Shown here in pieces: positions 1-26,510 of a stretch of 39,249 nucleotides of DNA. Below the pieces are notes generated by a model. The model was not told the origin of the DNA. It saw only the letters and a program-made list of their open reading frames with translations, and did not search any database. The DNA is from a virus (Duplodnaviria > Heunggongvirae > Uroviricota > Caudoviricetes), in IMG/VR virus record IMGVR_UViG_2861079508_000003, positions 1 to 39,249 of that record. One strand, given 5' to 3'. Position numbers and translations under genes: made by a program. The first letter of the stretch is position 1. Every line of letters begins with the position of its first letter.

Positions 1-192
1 TCAGGAGCATTTCTGATTAACGCCACCGTTAAGAATCCATCCTTCAACAGCTTCACGAAGGTATGATTTTGGGTGGGTTCTGACTGGCTTCGGAAATCCG
101 TGCCGTTTGGTATAGTTCCAGATTGTCTGACGTGATGAAACACCGAGCTTGTTCATCACTTCTTTCTCAGGAATCAGGCTGGTATCGGTCAT
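1..192 (-). CDS. xis: Excisionase / AlpA-family DNA-binding protein (63 aa)
   Basis: Small basic protein with the AlpA/Xis-type pattern (..GVSSRQTIWNYTKRHGFPKP..); sits at the extreme left, where a lambdoid int-xis pair ends. Family assignment from recalled knowledge. Confidence 0.65.
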   Translation of the reverse strand: MTDTSLIPEKEVMNKLGVSSRQTIWNYTKRHGFPKPVRTHPKSYLREAVEGWILNGGVNQKCS

Positions 193-292
193 CTTAATTC
201 TCCAGGCAAAAAGAAACCGCCATATAGCGGCTCTATCAGATATGTACAGGCCTCATCGAGTGTGAGGCGGTGTGATTTCTTTATTTCCACTC

Positions 293-9536: not shown

Positions 9537-10484
9537 ATGAGCAATACAGCAAAAATCTACGATTTCAGCGCCGCACACGAGCGCAGGAGCAACAGGATGG
9601 AGAACCAGAAAACTGGTTACATTCCGTTGTACCGGAGCATTCTGAAACAGTCATGGGCGAAAGATGTTTATCTTCGCACCCTGTGGGAAAACCTTCTCCT
9701 GAATGCCGCCAGAAAGCCATACAAAGCGAATTTCAAAGGTCATGAATGGCATCTGCAACCCGGTCAACTGGTTGTGACAGCAGCTGATTTAGGTCTTCAG
9801 TTATGCGACAGGCATGGCAAGCCGGCAAGCCGTGATCAGGTTGAGCGGATGCTTCAGGTTTTTGTGAAAGAGGGGATGATCTCCATTGATGGAGAGAAGC
9901 AAAAAGGTCGTGTGATCACCATCACAAATTACCATGAATACGCTCAAAAAATGGACAATTCACCCGCACATGAAGCCGCACAAACAACCGCACATGATGC
10001 CGCACATGATGAAACCAGTAATGGCGCGGCATTCAGCGCACATGCCGCACATGAAAGCGCACATGAAGCCGCACAAACAACCGCACATCATGAACAAGAA
10101 GGTATTAACAAGAATATAAATAATACCCCCCTACCCCCCAATGGGGGAGGCGATGGGCAGGTTAAACCTGAACGTCGCAAGGCAGAACGAATCGACTATG
10201 AATCCTTCCTGAACGCCTACAACACCGAAGTCGGTGACAGACTGCCACACGCTGTTGCGGTCAACGAGAAACGCAAACGCCGCCTGAAGAAAATCATCCC
10301 GCAACTGAAAACGCCAAACGTGGACGGTTTCAGAGCGTATGTCAGGGCGTTTGTACATCAGGCCAAGCCGTTTTACTTCGGAGACAACGACACGGGCTGG
10401 ACAGCTGATTTTGATTACCTGTTGAGGGAAGATTCGTTAACTGGAGTACGGGAAGGGAAGTTTGCAGACAGGGGGATTGCATGA
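9537..10484 (+). CDS. O: Replication initiation protein (lambda O / P22 gene 18 type; 315 aa)
   Basis: N-terminus [10 protein letters not shown].. parallels lambda O (MTNTAKILNF..); contains an internal iteron array and AT-rich block as in lambdoid ori; followed by a coupled helicase gene. Confidence 0.75.
9964..10092. repeat. Replication-origin iterons: about 9 copies of a 12-bp unit (CCGCACATGAAG and variants), then AT-rich block and GC-rich palindrome (about 10093-10150)
   Basis: Tandem 12-bp periodicity visible in the DNA, encoding the [10 protein letters not shown].. repeats; iterons, AT-rich stretch and palindrome are the lambdoid ori arrangement. Confidence 0.6.
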
Positions 10485-11857
10485 GACAGGATATCGAAGC
10501 GAGCGTTATCGGTGGCCTGCTGATTGGTGGATTAACACCAACTGCCAGTGACGTTCTGGCAACGCTGGAGCCGGAAGCGTTTTCAATTCCGCTCTACCGG
10601 AAAGCCTTCGAGGTTATCCGCAAGCAGGCGAGAAACAGAAACCTAATCGATGCGCTGATGGTTGCCGAGGCGTGCGGAGAGGAGCATTTCACGTCAATCC
10701 TGATGACCAGCAAAAACTGCCCGAGTGCCGCAAACCTGAAGGGATATGCCGGAATGGTCGCGGATAACTATCACCGTCGTCTGGTGCTGGAAATCATGGA
10801 TGAAATGCGTGAACCAATTCAGAGCGGAACTATCGACGCATCGAGTCAGGCGATGGATGAACTTGTAAAGCGTCTTTCAGCCATCAGAAAGCCCCGTGAC
10901 GAGGTAAAACCTGTACGGTTAGGGGAAATCATTACTGACTACACTGACACGCTTGACAGGCGTCTGAGGAACGGAGAAGAGTCAGATACCCTGAAGACCG
11001 GAATCGAAGAACTTGACGCCATCACCGGAGGGATGAACGCAGAAGACCTGGTGATAATCGCTGCTCGTCCTGGTATGGGGAAAACCGAACTGGCTCTGAA
11101 GATTGCCGAAGGCGTTGCAAGCCGCGTTATTCCTGGTTCTGACGTCCGGCGCGGGGTATTGATTTTCTCGATGGAAATGAGCGCATTGCAGATTGCAGAG
11201 CGAAGCATTGCCAACGCCGGGAGGATGTCGGTTAGCGTACTGCGAAATCCTGCATCGATGGATGACGAGGGCTGGGCACGTGTTGCTAACGGCATGAGTC
11301 AGCTTGCAGATTTGGATGTATGGGTAGTCGATGCTTCGCGGTTATCGGTCGAAGAAATACGCTCAATCGCAGAACGGCATAAGCAGGAAAATCCAAACCT
11401 GTCACTCATCATGGTGGATTATCTTGGCCTGATTGAGAAGCCGAAAGCAGATCGCAACGACCTCGCAATTGCTCACATCTCCGGAAGCCTGAAGGCGATG
11501 GCGAAAGACCTGAAAACACCGGTTATCTCCCTGAGTCAGCTTTCGCGCGATGTTGAGAAGCGACCAAACAAACGCCCGACAAACGCAGATTTGCGTGATT
11601 CAGGAAGCATTGAACAGGACGCAGACTCAATCATCATGCTCTATCGGGAAGCGGTATATGACGAGAACAGTAGCGCCGCGCCATTTGCTGAAATCATCGT
11701 GACGAAAAACCGTTTTGGCTCACTTGGTACGGTTTACCAGCGGTTCTGCAACGGACACTTTGTTGCATGTGACCAGGATGAAGCCAGACAGATTTGCACA
11801 GCATCAAATGCACCTGCTGCGCGTGGCAGACGATATGCACAAGGGGCGGACGTATGA
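10481..11857 (+). CDS. Replicative DNA helicase, DnaB family (P22 gene 12 type; 458 aa)
   Basis: N-terminal DnaB domain and C-terminal RecA-like domain with Walker A ([12 protein letters not shown]) and DnaB motifs (..[10 protein letters not shown].., ..[12 protein letters not shown]..); start overlaps the O stop. Confidence 0.9.
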
Positions 11858-23520: not shown

Positions 23521-24432
23521 ATGGACCAAACCACCGACATTCAGGCTTCTGAAGAATTAACCCTGCCCGGCAATCATGCAGCGGCATCTGCTGATGGCTT
23601 AGTTGTCGATAATGCCAACGACAACGCAGGTCAGGAAGAAGGCTTCGAGATTGTCCTGAAAGACGATGAGAAACCAAAACAAGACCCGGCAACTAATGCT
23701 GAATTTGCCCGTCGCCGCATCGAACGCAAACGCCAGCGTGAGCTTGAGCAACAGATGGAAGCGGTTAAGCGTGGAGAGTTGCCGGAGCACCTGCGGGTGA
23801 ACCCTGAGTTACCAAAACAACCAGACCCTAACGATTATCTTTCCGAAGATGCACTGGCTAAGTACGACTATGACCAGAGCCGCGCACTGGCTGCCTTCCA
23901 GCAGGCAAATAGTGAATGGCAGATCAAGGCTATGGACGCACGAAGCCAGGCTGTCGCCGAGCAGGGTCGCAAAACTCAGGAGTTCACCCAGCAATCAGCG
24001 CAATACGTCGAGGCAGCCCGTAAGCACTACGACGCAGCGGAAAAGCTCAATATCCCTGACTATCAGGAGAAAGAGGATGCATTCATGCAACTGGTGCCGC
24101 CAGCAGTCGGTGCCGACATCATGCGCCTCTTCCCGGAGAAATCCGCTGCTCTCATGTATCACCTTGGTGCTAATCCTGAGAAAACACGCCAGTTGCTGGC
24201 GATGGACGGGCAATCCGCGCTGATTGAACTCACTCGACTGTCAGAACGTTTAACTCTCAAGCCTCGAGCCAAACCTGTTTCAGAAGCCCCGCTACCTGAT
24301 GAACCCATTCAGGGACACGCTGTTGCTGCAAATATATCTGCGATTGAAAAGCAGATGGAAGCGGCAGCAAACAAAGGGGATGTAGAGACATACCGCAAGC
24401 TCAAGGCGCAACTGAATAAAGGAATTCGATAA
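23521..24432 (+). CDS. Scaffolding protein (P22 gp8 type; 303 aa)
   Basis: Same length as P22 gp8, highly charged helical composition, between portal and coat. Confidence 0.8.
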
Positions 24433-25727
24433 TGGCATTAAATGAAGGTCAACTGGTCACGTATGCTCTGGATGAAATCATCGAAACCGTCCAGAACCTG
24501 ACGCCAATGGCGTCCAAAGTGACAAAATACACCCCTCCGGCAGAATCCATGCAGCGTTCAAGCAACACCGTGTGGATGCCTGTTGAGCAGGAAGCGCCAA
24601 CCCAGACTGGCTGGGATTTAACTGGCAACGCAACCGGGATTCTGGAACTCTCCGTGAAATGCAACATGGGCGATCCGGATAACGATTTCTTCGAGCTTCG
24701 TGCAGATGACCTGCGTGATGAGCGTTCTTACCGTCGCCGAATCCAGGCATCCGCCAAAAAACTGGCAAATAACATTGAGTCAGCGATTGCCAAACAGGCA
24801 ACTGAAATGGGATCGCTTGTTGTTCACGATACCCGCGCAATTGGTCCATCTACTGGCCTGTCTGGCTGGGATTTTGTGTCTGATGCAGAGCGCCTGATGT
24901 TCTCCCGTGAGCTAAACCGCGATATGGGCATCAGTTACTTCCTGAACCCTGACGATTACCGCAAAGCAGGCCGCAACCTGGTAGATGGTGACATCTTTGG
25001 GCGCGTTCCTGAAGACGCGTATCGCAACGGTACTATTCAGCGTCAGATTGCTGGCTTTGATGAAATTCTTCGCTCACCGAAACTTCCGGCAGTTACCAAG
25101 TCAACCGCTACTGGTGTAACTGTTTCTGGTGCGCAGAAGTTTAAGCCGCAGGCATACACCCTTGATACCGATGGTAACAAAGAGAACGTCGACAACCGTG
25201 TTGCAACGGTGACCGTATCCTCCACCACCGGATTTAAGCGCGGCGACAAAATCAGCTTCACTGGTGTGAAGTTCCTGTCTCAGATGGCGAAGAATGTGCT
25301 GACTGATGACGCGACTTTCTCAATCACCCGTGTGATCGATAGTACTCACATCGAAATCACGCCGAAGCCGATTGCGCTGGATGACGCGTCACTGACAAAA
25401 GAAGAGAAGGCTTACGCGAATGTAAACACCTCTCTTGCTGATACCACACCGGTAAACGTTCTGAACGTGGCAACAACCACCGCTAACGTGTTCTGGGCTG
25501 ATGACTCAATCCGTCTACTGTCTCAGCCTATCCCGGTAACCCATGAGCTGTTTGCTGGCATGAAAACGTCTTCCTTCAGCATTCCTGGTATTGGTGTTAA
25601 CGGCATCTTCGCTACACAGGGTGATATCAACACTCTGTCTGGCAAGTGCCGTATTGCTGTGTGGTATTCAGCATGTGCTGTACGACCAGAGGCAATTGGT
25701 GTTGGTCTGCCTAACCAGACTGCGTGA
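24432..25727 (+). CDS. Major coat protein (P22 gp5 type; 431 aa)
   Basis: N-terminus [54 protein letters not shown].. aligns closely with recalled P22 coat protein across its length. Confidence 0.95.
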
Positions 25728-25735
25728 TAACCAGA

Positions 25736-25757
25736 GGGGGCTTCGGCTCCCTTTTTT
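25736..25757 (+). terminator. Rho-independent terminator after the coat gene (UUCG tetraloop hairpin plus T6)
   Basis: GGGGGC-TTCG-GCTCCC followed by TTTTTT, 9 bp after the coat stop. Confidence 0.55.
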
Positions 25758-25771
25758 ATCTGGAGACAAAC

Positions 25772-26032
25772 ATGACACACATGATCTTTCGTCATGGCGA
25801 CATGAAGAAATGGAAAGGCGTTGGATACGACTTTGAAATCGTGAAAGCCGAAGAGCTTCAGGAATATCTGGATGCTGGCTGGTTTGCACATCCTGATGAT
25901 CTTCTGAAGGATGTTGCAGAGACAGAGCCAGAGCCAGAACCAGAGCCAGAGCCAGAGCCAGAAGAAAAACAGCGTAAAAAGCCTGGTAGAAAACCTAAGG
26001 CGGCAGCAGATGAACCTGACAACGAAGGGTGA
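25772..26032 (+). CDS. Hypothetical protein with (Glu-Pro)n linker and basic C-terminal tail (86 aa)
   Basis: ATG with GGAG RBS just after the coat terminator; contains [13 protein letters not shown] encoded by a hexanucleotide tandem repeat, then KKPGRKPK; overlaps the gp4 start. Confidence 0.45.
25925..25960 (+). repeat. Tandem hexanucleotide repeat (GAGCCA)x6 with one GAACCA variant
   Basis: Directly visible; in frame within the 25772..26032 ORF, encoding the EP repeats. Confidence 0.9.
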
Positions 26033-26510
26033 TTTAGTTCTTGCGGCATTACGTAAGCTCGGTGTGGCATCAAATGCCACGTTAACAGATGTCGAACCGC
26101 AGTCTATGGAAGACGGCGTCAACGACCTTGAAATGATGATGGCTGAATGGCTTGGCGGTGATGCGTCACCTGGTATCAACGTTGGCTACATTTTTGCTGA
26201 TGCAGATGTTGCTCCGGATCCGGGCGATGAGCACGGTTTATCAAATAACGCTATCAATGCCGTCATTTTCAACCTTGCCTGCCGCATTGCTCCAGATTAT
26301 GCGCTGGAAGCGTCTGCAAAACTTATAACCACTGCCAGATACGGGAAAGAGCGACTCGTCAAACTGTCTGCAATGGACAGAGCAAAAGCCGCTAAATGTA
26401 AGTCCGGTTATCCAAACCGTATGCCTGTTGGTAGCGGTAACCAGTTGGCGAAGTGGAACGGTTGGAATTACTTCCACCGAAAGGAACCTTGCGATAACGG
26501 GAGCGAATAA
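26010..26510 (+). CDS. Tail accessory / head-completion protein (P22 gp4 type; 166 aa)
   Basis: From ATG at 26010: [47 protein letters not shown].. closely matches recalled P22 gp4. Confidence 0.8.

What the first reader, a model, noticed from the sequence alone, without database searches (positions are those of the whole stretch)
25772..26032. Small ORF with a (Glu-Pro)6-7 linker and basic tail, encoded by a hexanucleotide tandem repeat between coat and gp4
An ORF with a good RBS follows the coat terminator and contains (GAGCCA)n encoding [13 protein letters not shown], then a Lys/Arg/Pro-rich tail (KKPGRKPK). P22 itself has no gene here as far as I recall. The repeat is in frame, so slippage would change linker length without breaking the reading frame. 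The gene overlaps the gp4 start by 23 nt, so it could affect gp4 translation.
Basis: seen in the sequence. Interest (0 to 1): 0.5.

Follow-up and report, generated by a model that had tools for sequence, protein, structure and literature searches.

The report
P22 orf69-family gene, slippery linker
This is a real but already catalogued small late gene of P22-like phages (the counterpart of phage P22 orf69); its middle is a Glu-Pro spacer that lengthens and shortens by DNA slippage, and its function is still unknown and reportedly dispensable in P22.

Summary
An 86-codon ORF (25772..26032) follows the coat-gene terminator, has a GGAG ribosome-binding site, contains seven in-frame GAGCCA-type hexamers (ET + 6 EP), then a basic patch RKKPGRKPK, and ends 23 nt inside gene 4. 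It is a genuine gene: 98 of 98 informative loci chosen through gp4 carry it intact, and its N-terminal domain has dN/dS about 0.07, like the coat gene. It is not new. Published work calls the role of this gene family unknown and the P22 copy non-essential. The family layout is N-domain, variable middle, basic patch. The middle is (EP)1-15 in E. coli-type prophages, a WDGH domain in Salmonella phages, 7 aa in P22 and nothing in a Tatumella prophage. Tract length differs between otherwise identical haplotypes, so it is a slippage-driven, largely length-neutral spacer. The only functional lead is a similarity of the N-domain to repeat modules of GIY-YIG/HNH homing endonucleases plus an AT-hook-like tail, which suggests nucleic-acid binding (inference, about 0.3). 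Interest is low.

The parts
24432..25727 (+). Coat protein gene (P22 gp5 type), upstream neighbour
   Evidence: PF11651 E 3.4e-165; phrog_283/22632
25733..25764 (+). Intrinsic-terminator-like hairpin plus T-run after the coat gene (equivalent of Sf6 't coat' and the annotated P22 stem-loop)
   Evidence: 9-bp stem, 5 GC pairs, UUCG loop, T-run; annotated at the same position in P22, Sf6 and g341c
25762..25765 (+). Shine-Dalgarno GGAG, 6 nt before the ORF start
   Evidence: Read directly from the sequence
25772..26032 (+). The ORF: 86-aa orthologue of P22 orf69 (phrog_1175)
   Evidence: intact in 98/98 informative gp4-anchored loci
25772..25918 (+). N-terminal domain (49 aa), predicted beta-beta-alpha, conserved motif G16...G36-W37..H40-P41
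   Evidence: Alignment A1; AF2 strands 2-8 and 19-25, helix 26-34, block pLDDT 78-86; dN/dS 0.07
25919..25960 (+). In-frame hexanucleotide array, 7 units (1 GAGACA, 5 GAGCCA, 1 GAACCA) = ET(EP)6 spacer
   Evidence: TRF; copy number 1-15 in relatives, 326/368 units are GAGCCA
25973..25999 (+). Basic Pro/Gly patch RKKPGRKPK (AT-hook-like, not canonical); its last codons also hold the gp4 Shine-Dalgarno AAGG (25997-26000)
   Evidence: Conserved as amino acids through synonymous codon changes across genera; P22 has KPRKGRKPK
26010..26032 (+). 23-nt dual-coded overlap: ORF codons ..DEPDNEG* and gp4 codons MNLTTKGD
   Evidence: the acidic end is missing in Citrobacter/Kluyvera-type copies that stop 3 nt before gp4
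26010..26510 (+). gp4 head-tail adaptor (Ad3), downstream neighbour
   Evidence: PF11650 E 1.1e-58; phrog_637

Best explanation
The ORF is a genuine late gene of a P22-like (Lederbergvirus-type) prophage. It is the E. coli/Shigella-lineage orthologue of P22 orf69 (the epsilon34/g341c 'gene 6' family; PHROGs 1175 and 3769).

Shown:
- It sits after the coat terminator and before gene 4 in every relative examined.
- Its product has three parts.
  1. A beta-beta-alpha N-domain of about 46-49 aa under purifying selection as strong as on the coat protein.
  2. A dispensable, interchangeable middle. Here it is a (Glu-Pro)n spacer encoded by a nearly pure GAGCCA array that expands and contracts by replication slippage, always in frame because the unit is 6 nt.
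  3. A conserved basic patch KKPG(R/P)KPK.
- The acidic last 7 residues are only the by-product of overlapping the gp4 start.
- Tract length (1-15 units) has a broad distribution and differs between otherwise identical haplotypes. It therefore behaves as a length-tolerant flexible or extended spacer, not a tuned element or a switch.

Inferred:
- The gene is translated from late-operon transcripts that read through the coat terminator. Because its ribosomes terminate at or just past the gp4 start, it probably contributes to gp4 translation by coupling.
- The protein itself most likely binds nucleic acid as a non-essential accessory factor of head completion or DNA packaging. The N-domain shares its strand-helix-GW core with the tandem modules that follow the catalytic domain of GIY-YIG/HNH homing endonucleases, and the tail is AT-hook-like.

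My confidence in the identity, architecture and slippage part is about 0.9. My confidence in the nucleic-acid-binding function is about 0.3.
For: Identity:
- phrog_1175 full length, E 1.3e-36.
- BLASTP to P22 orf69, E 3e-9, covering N-domain and basic patch.
- Same position and layout in g341c gene 6, ST64T, ST104, L and BTP1.

Reality as a gene:
- A gp4-anchored survey that did not depend on the ORF covered 80 IMG/VR loci, 18 GTDB loci and 4 phage loci. All 98 informative loci carry it intact, from Escherichia to Xenorhabdus, Pantoea, Erwinia, Yersinia and Tatumella.
- N-domain dN/dS is 0.070, against 0.075 for coat and 0.033 for gp4 in the same genomes.
- The basic patch is kept through synonymous changes.
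- The gene is present in 173 of 5,426 complete E. coli genomes.

Slippage and neutrality:
- 326/368 units are GAGCCA.
- Lengths run from 1 to 15 units with no sharp mode.
- 5 of 55 flank haplotypes that are identical over about 350 nt carry more than one tract length.
- The middle is replaced by a WDGH domain (PF25311, E 1.4e-39) in the long variant, by 7 aa in P22 and by nothing in Tatumella.

Function lead:
- phmmer of the N-domain against 1.84 billion representatives finds, besides family members, multi-repeat proteins (E 5e-7 to 8e-4). Several of them carry GIY-YIG, HNH or NUMOD3 signatures.
- Profile-profile comparison gives 96.5% probability, E 9e-10 over 20 columns.
- One family member has a canonical RRGRPPK AT-hook tail.

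Published: role unknown, P22 copy shortened and 'not essential in the laboratory' (PMC2629481, citing Eppler et al. 1991).
Against: No direct evidence of expression or of any biochemical activity was available.

Weaknesses of the nuclease-repeat similarity:
- It covers only about 20 residues.
- The repeat profile was built from hits to the query, so it is partly circular.
- One multi-stretch hit (P0130) is an unrelated adhesin.
- The module has no Pfam model and no solved structure, so its DNA-binding role is itself only inferred from domain order.

Weaknesses of the AT-hook reading:
- The window's tail is PGRKP, not the R-G-R-P core.
- No AT_hook Pfam hit was obtained for it.

Coupling to gp4: there is no special RNA structure at the gp4 start, and the overlap length is not conserved across genera (-3, 17, 23 or 65 nt).

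Non-essentiality in P22 means any role in assembly is at most accessory.
Confidence: 0.8

Rival explanations
1. The peptide is unimportant. The ORF is mainly a translated leader that brings ribosomes, on the few transcripts that pass the coat terminator, to the gene 4 start, so that gp4 is made in a fixed low ratio by translational coupling.
For: The ORF always starts 35-59 nt after the coat stop in most loci, just past the terminator, and always ends between 3 nt before and 65 nt after the gp4 ATG. The gp4 Shine-Dalgarno lies inside the ORF's last codons. The gene is reported non-essential in P22.
Against: N-domain dN/dS is 0.07, equal to the coat gene. Invariant G/GW/HP motif positions are kept across genera at only 24-34% identity. 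Basic-patch amino acids are kept through synonymous changes. A pure leader would not keep a folded domain or acquire a WDGH domain. There is no RNA structure sequestering the gp4 start. The two roles are not exclusive.
Confidence: 0.1
2. The protein acts through protein-protein contacts rather than nucleic acid. For example, it could be an assembly chaperone or low-copy virion or portal-vertex component, whose N-domain docks on a head-completion protein and whose charged tail contacts the portal, gp4 or the capsid interior.
For: Synteny with coat and head-completion genes is strict and universal in a highly mosaic phage group. The acidic spacer plus basic patch could bind charged protein surfaces. 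The extended (EP)n resembles the TonB and procyclin rod-like spacers (sub-threshold compositional hits).
Against: No homology or fold match to any known structural or chaperone protein. The papers I could read do not list it among virion proteins. It is dispensable in P22. I could not run complex prediction.
Confidence: 0.25
3. It is a moron-like host-directed or anti-defence effector that merely rides in the late operon. For example, it could be an acidic DNA-mimic or nucleoid-protein binder.
For: It is small and non-essential, has a highly charged low-complexity segment, and has a modular middle that can hold a WDGH domain also found in non-structural regions of unrelated Listeria, Bacillus and Streptococcus phages.
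Against: The position is fixed in all relatives, unlike typical morons. It has no own promoter (0 promoter-like sites). There were no hits in PADLOC, although that library holds defence rather than anti-defence proteins. The acidic tract is absent in P22, Tatumella and Xenorhabdus copies.
Confidence: 0.1
4. The repeat is read in the gp4 frame as (Ser-Gln)n. It would then be part of an N-terminally extended gp4, as annotated for phages IME10 and Dewey, or of an ORF-gp4 fusion made by +1 frameshifting.
For: In the window the gp4 frame is open back to ATG 25911 (199-aa ORF). IME10 and Dewey records annotate gp4 that way.
Against: In P22 and in most other genera a stop lies one codon upstream of the gp4 ATG. 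ATG 25911 has no proper Shine-Dalgarno spacing. gp4 aligns from its Met1 with the Pfam P22_Tail-4 model (positions 2-160 to 3-151). No slippery +1 site is evident. The openness in E. coli-type copies follows automatically from the stop-free hexamer.
Confidence: 0.02
5. The ORF is spurious and the hexamer array is a non-coding DNA or RNA element between coat and gp4.
For: A 6-nt unit keeps any frame open whether or not it is translated, so in-frame copy-number variation alone proves nothing.
Against: The flanking N-domain and basic patch are under strong purifying selection and are conserved where the repeat is absent. There is a full-length PHROG match. The ORF has a good RBS. No Rfam-type structure was sought because the coding signal is decisive.
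Confidence: 0.01

Closest known systems
Phage P22 orf69 (DAA00988.1; BK000583 6135..6344), product 'unknown, putative'
   Same: Same position (after the coat stem-loop, overlapping gene 4). Same layout of N-domain, short acidic segment, basic patch (KPRKGRKPKA) and acidic end. BLASTP E 3e-9, 35% identity.
   Different: P22 has a 7-aa non-repetitive linker (PVEADDV) instead of the (EP)n array, is 69 aa rather than 86 aa, and overlaps gene 4 by 17 nt rather than 23 nt.
epsilon34 / g341c 'gene 6', ST64T, ST104 ORF54, phage L, BTP1 (phrog_3769)
   Same: Same locus. Homologous N-domain (34% identity; phrog_1175 hit E 2.4e-14). E. coli prophage versions carry the identical [23 protein letters not shown] tail and a short EP tract. 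Described in PMC2629481 as variable in length and of unknown role.
   Different: They carry a WDGH domain of about 100 aa (PF25311) between the N-domain and the tail. The window ORF lacks it.
Sf6 gene 6 / HK620 hkbT
   Same: Same position after 't coat', overlapping the gp4 homologue by 26 nt. Small (61 aa), with a basic KRGRK patch near the C-terminus.
   Different: No demonstrable sequence homology of the N-terminal part (hhalign probability 0.8%). I treat it as a positional analogue only.
Tandem 'ELQxYLDxGW' modules of GIY-YIG / HNH / NUMOD3-containing homing-endonuclease-like proteins (no Pfam model)
   Same: Shares a strand-helix-GW core of about 20 residues with the N-domain (phmmer E 5e-7 to 8e-4 in 1.84 billion proteins; hhalign 96.5%).
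   Different: Single copy instead of 4-6 tandem copies, a longer hairpin loop, and no nuclease domain. The biochemical role of the module is itself untested.
AT-hook (PF02178; HMGA-type minor-groove DNA-binding motif)
   Same: Short basic Pro/Gly-containing patch. One family member has RRGRPPK.
   Different: The window has PGRKP, not the R-G-R-P core. There is no Pfam hit for the window protein, and the best family member scores 14 bits against a cutoff of 17.4.
Glu-Pro spacers of TonB and trypanosome procyclin (PARP)
   Same: (EP)n composition followed by Lys/Pro-rich residues. In those proteins such tracts are known (from general knowledge, not tested here) to form extended rod-like spacers.
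   Different: Only compositional, far-sub-threshold matches (17.4 vs 100 bits; 12.8 vs 315 bits). No homology and a different cellular context.

Membership tests
P22 orf69 / phrog_1175 family | Full-length match to the family profile | tested here: met
   phrog_1175 E 1.3e-36, protein 1-84 to profile 1-72/72
P22 orf69 / phrog_1175 family | Significant similarity to P22 orf69 itself | tested here: met
   BLASTP E 3e-9, 35% identity over N-domain plus basic patch
P22 orf69 / phrog_1175 family | Position between coat terminator and gene 4, ending at the gene 4 start | tested here: met
   98/98 informative loci
P22 orf69 / phrog_1175 family | Conserved N-domain motif (M4, G16, G36-W37, H40-P41) | tested here: met
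   Alignment A1 of 17 divergent members
phrog_3769 / WDGH-containing 'gene 6' variant | WDGH domain (PF25311) between N-domain and tail | tested here: not met
   No WDGH hit for the window ORF; only the N-terminal 48 aa match phrog_3769
AT-hook DNA-binding motif | R-G-R-P core flanked by basic residues; Pfam AT_hook above threshold | tested here: not met
   Window tail is KKPGRKPK with no Pfam hit; relative P0133 (RRGRPPK) scores 14 bits against a 17.4 cutoff
AT-hook DNA-binding motif | Binding to the minor groove of AT-rich DNA | not testable with these tools
   Needs gel-shift or footprinting
Homing endonuclease (GIY-YIG / HNH) proteins | Nuclease catalytic domain | tested here: not met
   No GIY-YIG or HNH hit in the window ORF
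Homing endonuclease (GIY-YIG / HNH) proteins | Similarity to the tandem ELQxYLDxGW module | tested here: met
   phmmer E 5e-7 to 8e-4; hhalign 96.5%, E 9e-10, 20 columns; partly circular profile
Homing endonuclease (GIY-YIG / HNH) proteins | Module present in tandem copies | tested here: not met
   Single copy in all family members
Simple-sequence contingency (phase-variable) locus | Repeat copy number polymorphic among close relatives | tested here: met
   1-15 units; 5 identical-flank haplotypes with more than one length
Simple-sequence contingency (phase-variable) locus | Copy-number change switches the gene on/off by frameshift or promoter spacing | tested here: not met
   The unit is 6 nt and in frame; no frame-disrupted copy among 98 loci
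TonB / procyclin EP-repeat proteins | Family HMM above threshold | tested here: not met
   PF05887 17.4 bits vs 100; NF008084 12.8 bits vs 315

The most novel reading that the evidence does not exclude
The orf69 family could be a conserved nucleic-acid-binding accessory protein of the P22-like head-completion module. Its N-domain would be a single copy of a so-far undescribed DNA-binding module otherwise used in tandem by homing endonucleases, joined to an AT-hook-like tail. The slippage-prone (EP)n rod would then act as a population-level 'ruler' that diversifies the reach between the two binding ends. That would make it a length-variable, in-frame contingency element in a phage morphogenetic operon, rather than a neutral spacer.
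Probability: 0.08. Interest if true: 0.5.

Novelty: already known. Interest (0 to 1): 0.2.

Why it matters
It matters modestly, in four ways.
- The gene has sat unexplained inside one of the best-studied phage assembly operons since the P22 sequence of 1991. Yet it was present and under strong purifying selection in every P22-like prophage I sampled across Enterobacterales. A conserved, cheap-to-delete 60-200-aa protein with a clear three-part layout is an easy target for a functional study.
- Natural variation supplies a ready-made series for experiments: no linker, 7 aa, 1-15 EP units, or a whole WDGH domain.
- On the practical side, the locus is inconsistently annotated. The ORF is missing in IME10. 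gp4 is wrongly extended through the repeat in IME10 and Dewey. gp4 is called 'recombinase RmuC' in APC_JM3.2. Some NCBI and UniRef records call the ORF 'dihydrolipoamide acetyltransferase'.
- The similarity to an undescribed repeat module of homing endonucleases is a small new lead that could name both.

Tried and rejected
2. Sequence search of PDB with the N-domain profile and with the nuclease-repeat profile gave no meaningful hit.
3. PADLOC gave no hits and NCBIfam gave only a compositional TonB match far below threshold.
4. Extended gp4 or ORF-gp4 fusion by frameshift was rejected, because the gp4 frame is closed one codon upstream in P22 and most genera.
5. RNA structure hiding the gp4 start was rejected (z = -0.13).
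6. Sf6 gene 6 as a homologue is not supported (hhalign 0.8%) and is kept only as a positional analogue.
7. The last large protein search, with the nuclease-repeat profile (A4), found nothing (16 candidates, none significant). An earlier attempt failed because the profile was under 40 aa.
8. Literature. 'WDGH', 'hkbT' and 'orf69' searches gave no functional data. The ORF69 of the Stx phage paper is unrelated numbering. Casjens & Thuman-Commike 2011 and Eppler et al. 1991 are not held, so the non-essentiality claim rests on the statement in PMC2629481.
It is therefore not simply the same sequence at the same coordinates. I did not pursue this.

Full report
**1. What is in the sequence**

The region reads as the first-stage reader described.
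- The P22-type coat gene (24432..25727; PF11651, E 3.4e-165) is followed after 6 nt by a terminator-like hairpin at 25733-25754 (9-bp stem, UUCG loop, T-run).
- GGAG at 25762-25765 precedes an ATG at 25772 by 6 nt. The frame stays open to TGA at 26030-26032, giving 86 aa.
- Tandem Repeats Finder reports a period-6 array of 7.7 copies at 25917-25962, score 78, the strongest tandem repeat in the window.
- In the ORF frame the array is seven hexamers at 25919-25960 (GAGACA, then GAGCCA/GAACCA x6) = [14 protein letters not shown]. It is followed by EEKQ, the basic patch RKKPGRKPK (25973-25999) and [10 protein letters not shown].
- gp4 (PF11650, E 1.1e-58) starts at ATG 26010, so the overlap is 23 nt.

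**2. Is it a real gene?**

I surveyed the coat-gp4 junction with gp4, not the ORF, as the probe. This gave 80 IMG/VR loci and 18 loci from one-genome-per-species GTDB contigs, plus four annotated phage records.
- Four loci are cut too close to gp4 to be informative.
- Of the other 98, 96 show the N-domain by tblastn directly after the coat gene, with an intact ORF (72 distinct proteins).
- The Tatumella locus has a P22-orf69-like copy below the tblastn threshold.
- L052 holds a long variant truncated by the contig end.

So no relative lacks the gene or has it disrupted. That includes Citrobacter, Kluyvera, Buttiauxella, Rahnella, Yersinia, Xenorhabdus, Pantoea, Erwinia, Pseudescherichia and Tatumella.

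A 6-nt repeat unit keeps the frame open whether or not it is translated, so I tested the flanks for selection.
- In the E. coli-type loci the N-domain has pN/pS 0.076 (dN/dS 0.070). The last 118 codons of coat give 0.075 and gp4 gives 0.033 in the same genomes.
- Across genera the basic patch keeps its amino acids through synonymous codon changes (CCT/CCG, GGT/GGG, AAA/AAG).

The protein is therefore under purifying selection. The gene is in 173 of 5,426 complete E. coli genomes and is always called 'hypothetical protein'.

**3. What it is**

- The ORF matches phrog_1175 ('unknown function') over its full length (E 1.3e-36). Its first 48 residues also match phrog_3769.
- A 98%-identical protein heads a cluster of 392 database sequences, and 361 relatives were found.
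- The P22 reference record annotates orf69 ('unknown, putative') at exactly this place, after an annotated stem-loop and overlapping gene 4 by 17 nt.
- The orf69 product is MKIAIYKPGGSIMVWGVMAQMKVIDSSELPEYVKDGWLDHPSKLLPVEADDVKPRKGRKPKAVSDADKD. It aligns with the window ORF across the N-domain and the basic patch (E 3e-9).
- The epsilon34 genome paper calls the family 'gene 6'. It notes that lengths differ markedly and that P22 has an internal deletion. [quoted passage not shown] 1991, which I could not read).

Sf6 gene 6 (similar to HK620 hkbT) occupies the same slot and also has a KRGRK patch. Its N-terminal part is not detectably homologous (hhalign probability 0.8%).

**4. Architecture and the repeat**

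Comparison of all copies gives a three-part layout.

*(i) N-domain.* It is 46-49 aa with invariant M4, G16, G36-W37 and P41, and near-invariant H40. AlphaFold2 on a 34-sequence alignment predicts strand 2-8, strand 19-25 and helix 26-34 (block pLDDT 78-86). It predicts disorder for the rest (mean pLDDT 62.9).

*(ii) Middle segment.* This part is interchangeable:
- (E/D-x)n with x mostly P in E. coli-type copies, 1 to 15 dipeptides;
- a WDGH domain (PF25311, E 1.4e-39) plus 1-4 EP units in the 195-201-aa variant, which is gene 6 of g341c, ST64T, ST104, L and BTP1;
- non-repetitive Pro/acidic segments in Pantoea, Erwinia and Xenorhabdus;
- seven residues in P22 and none in Tatumella.

*(iii) Basic patch.* It reads KKPG(R/P)KPK, or KRTRKT, RGRKPK or GKGKK in other lineages.

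The acidic end DEPDNEG is simply the gp4 start read in another frame. Citrobacter/Kluyvera-type copies stop right after the patch, 3 nt before gp4.

At the DNA level (unless noted):
- the array is almost pure, with 326 of 368 units being GAGCCA;
- Yersinia uses GAGCCT;
- the length distribution is broad, without a sharp mode;
- five of 55 flank haplotypes that are identical over about 350 nt carry different tract lengths.

Slippage therefore outpaces point mutation, and length is weakly constrained. Because the unit is 6 nt, this is length variation and not on/off phase variation.

**5. How it most likely works**

*Shown:* it is a conserved late-operon protein-coding gene with a selected N-domain and basic patch, and a slippage-driven, length-tolerant spacer.

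*Inferred, first:* its ribosomes end at or just past the gp4 start in every lineage (-3 to +65 nt), and the gp4 Shine-Dalgarno (AAGG, 25997-26000) lies in its last codons. It therefore probably helps set gp4 translation on the transcripts that pass the coat terminator. There is no special RNA structure at the gp4 start (z = -0.13), so any coupling would be by proximity.

*Inferred, second:* the protein probably binds nucleic acid.
- An exhaustive phmmer search with the N-domain against 1.84 billion representative proteins found only 24 clusters. Besides family members, these are proteins that match in 4-6 tandem stretches (E 5e-7 to 8e-4).
- Their repeat unit is ...W-I-N-x-G-x-x-x-K-x-I-K-x-E-E-L-Q-x-Y-L-D-x-G-W-x-x-G.... 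Several carry GIY-YIG, HNH or NUMOD3 signatures N-terminal to the repeats or between them, which is the usual place of the DNA-binding region in homing endonucleases.
- A profile of these units aligns with the N-domain profile at 96.5% probability (E 9e-10) over the strand-helix-GW core.
- One family member ends in a canonical AT-hook, RRGRPPK.

Caveats on this lead:
- The match is short.
- The repeat profile was assembled from hits to the query.
- One hit is an unrelated adhesin.
- The module has no Pfam model or solved structure.
- The window's own tail (PGRKP) is not a canonical AT-hook.

I put the nucleic-acid-binding accessory role at about 0.3, a protein-protein adaptor or chaperone role at about 0.25, and leader-only and effector roles at about 0.1 each.

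**6. Rejected ideas**

- An N-terminally extended gp4 reading the repeat as (SQ)n, as annotated in IME10 and Dewey, or an ORF-gp4 fusion, is not supported. P22 and most other genera have a stop one codon before the gp4 ATG.
- Fold searches, PDB sequence searches and defence-system profiles gave nothing.
- The TonB and procyclin hits are compositional and far below threshold.
- The final large search with the nuclease-repeat profile returned nothing.

**7. Verdict**

The novelty claim is not: this is the E. coli-lineage allele of P22 orf69 / 'gene 6', a known, uncharacterised and reportedly non-essential gene.

The modest additions from this analysis are:
- the quantitative evidence of selection;
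- universality across 98 loci;
- the modular 'N-domain, anything, basic patch' layout;
- the behaviour of the EP tract as a fast-slipping neutral spacer;
- the lead to a homing-endonuclease repeat module.

Interest is low (0.2).

Noticed in passing
L003 (IME10, NC_019501) 1812-2417; L001 (Dewey, PQ850600) 1600-1737 and 1812-2405; L002 (APC_JM3.2) 1917-2417: Inconsistent annotation of this locus in deposited phages. IME10 omits the ORF and starts gp4 at the upstream ATG, so that it reads the repeat as (SQ)n. Dewey does the same and adds a spurious 45-aa CDS over the terminator. APC_JM3.2 annotates the ORF and the repeat_region but labels gp4 'recombinase RmuC'. Some NCBI and UniRef entries name the ORF 'dihydrolipoamide acetyltransferase', presumably from the Pro-rich linker.
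   Followed up: partly
L027, L029, L043, L047, L052, L055, L056, L058, L060, L061, L070, L076, L081 (about 1920-2520 in each 5.5-kb locus): A 195-201-aa variant of the same gene carries a WDGH domain (PF25311) inserted between the N-domain and the EP tract and tail. The WDGH domain alone occurs in about 200 unrelated phage records (Listeria A511 gp21, Bacillus, Streptococcus, Klebsiella, Erwinia phages) with no known function.
   Followed up: partly
Proteins P0129, P0132, P0134, P0136-P0140, P0142-P0144 (metagenomic): There is a tandemly repeated module of about 38 aa (consensus ..INK....K.IK..ELQ.YLDDGW..G) in GIY-YIG/HNH/NUMOD3-type nuclease-like proteins. It has no Pfam model and no solved structure, so it may be an undescribed DNA-binding repeat.
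   Followed up: partly
window 9964-10009 and 10045-10088: Two blocks of 12-nt repeats (CCGCACATGAAG/A, about 3.8 copies each) lie inside the replication protein O gene (9537..10484, PF04492), next to a DnaB-type helicase gene (10481..11857). These are ordinary lambdoid origin iterons.
   Followed up: partly
L001 (Dewey) 1-265, minus strand: An HNH endonuclease gene is annotated immediately upstream of the major head protein gene in phage Dewey, where the other relatives have the scaffold gene adjacent. It is probably a mobile-endonuclease insertion in the head module.
   Followed up: no
L054 (ORF end, about 2501-2547) and protein P0053: One allele has lost the normal TGA. It runs 8 codons further (..NEGGFSSCGIT), giving a 47-nt overlap with gp4. 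P0007 has a 13-aa internal duplication ([13 protein letters not shown] twice) at the end of the N-domain.
   Followed up: no
window 25523-26179, minus strand: A 218-aa antisense ORF spans the coat end, the whole small ORF and the gp4 start, reading the repeat as (WL)n. It has a TTG start and no support from any family search, so it is almost certainly an artefact of stop-free repeat DNA.
   Followed up: no
L036 (IMGVR_UViG_2869936548_000010): This IMG/VR contig has exactly the window's length (39,249 bp). However, it has a different allele of the ORF (82 aa, first unit AAGCCA = KP) and gp4 at a different coordinate. Its relationship to the window was not resolved.
   Followed up: no
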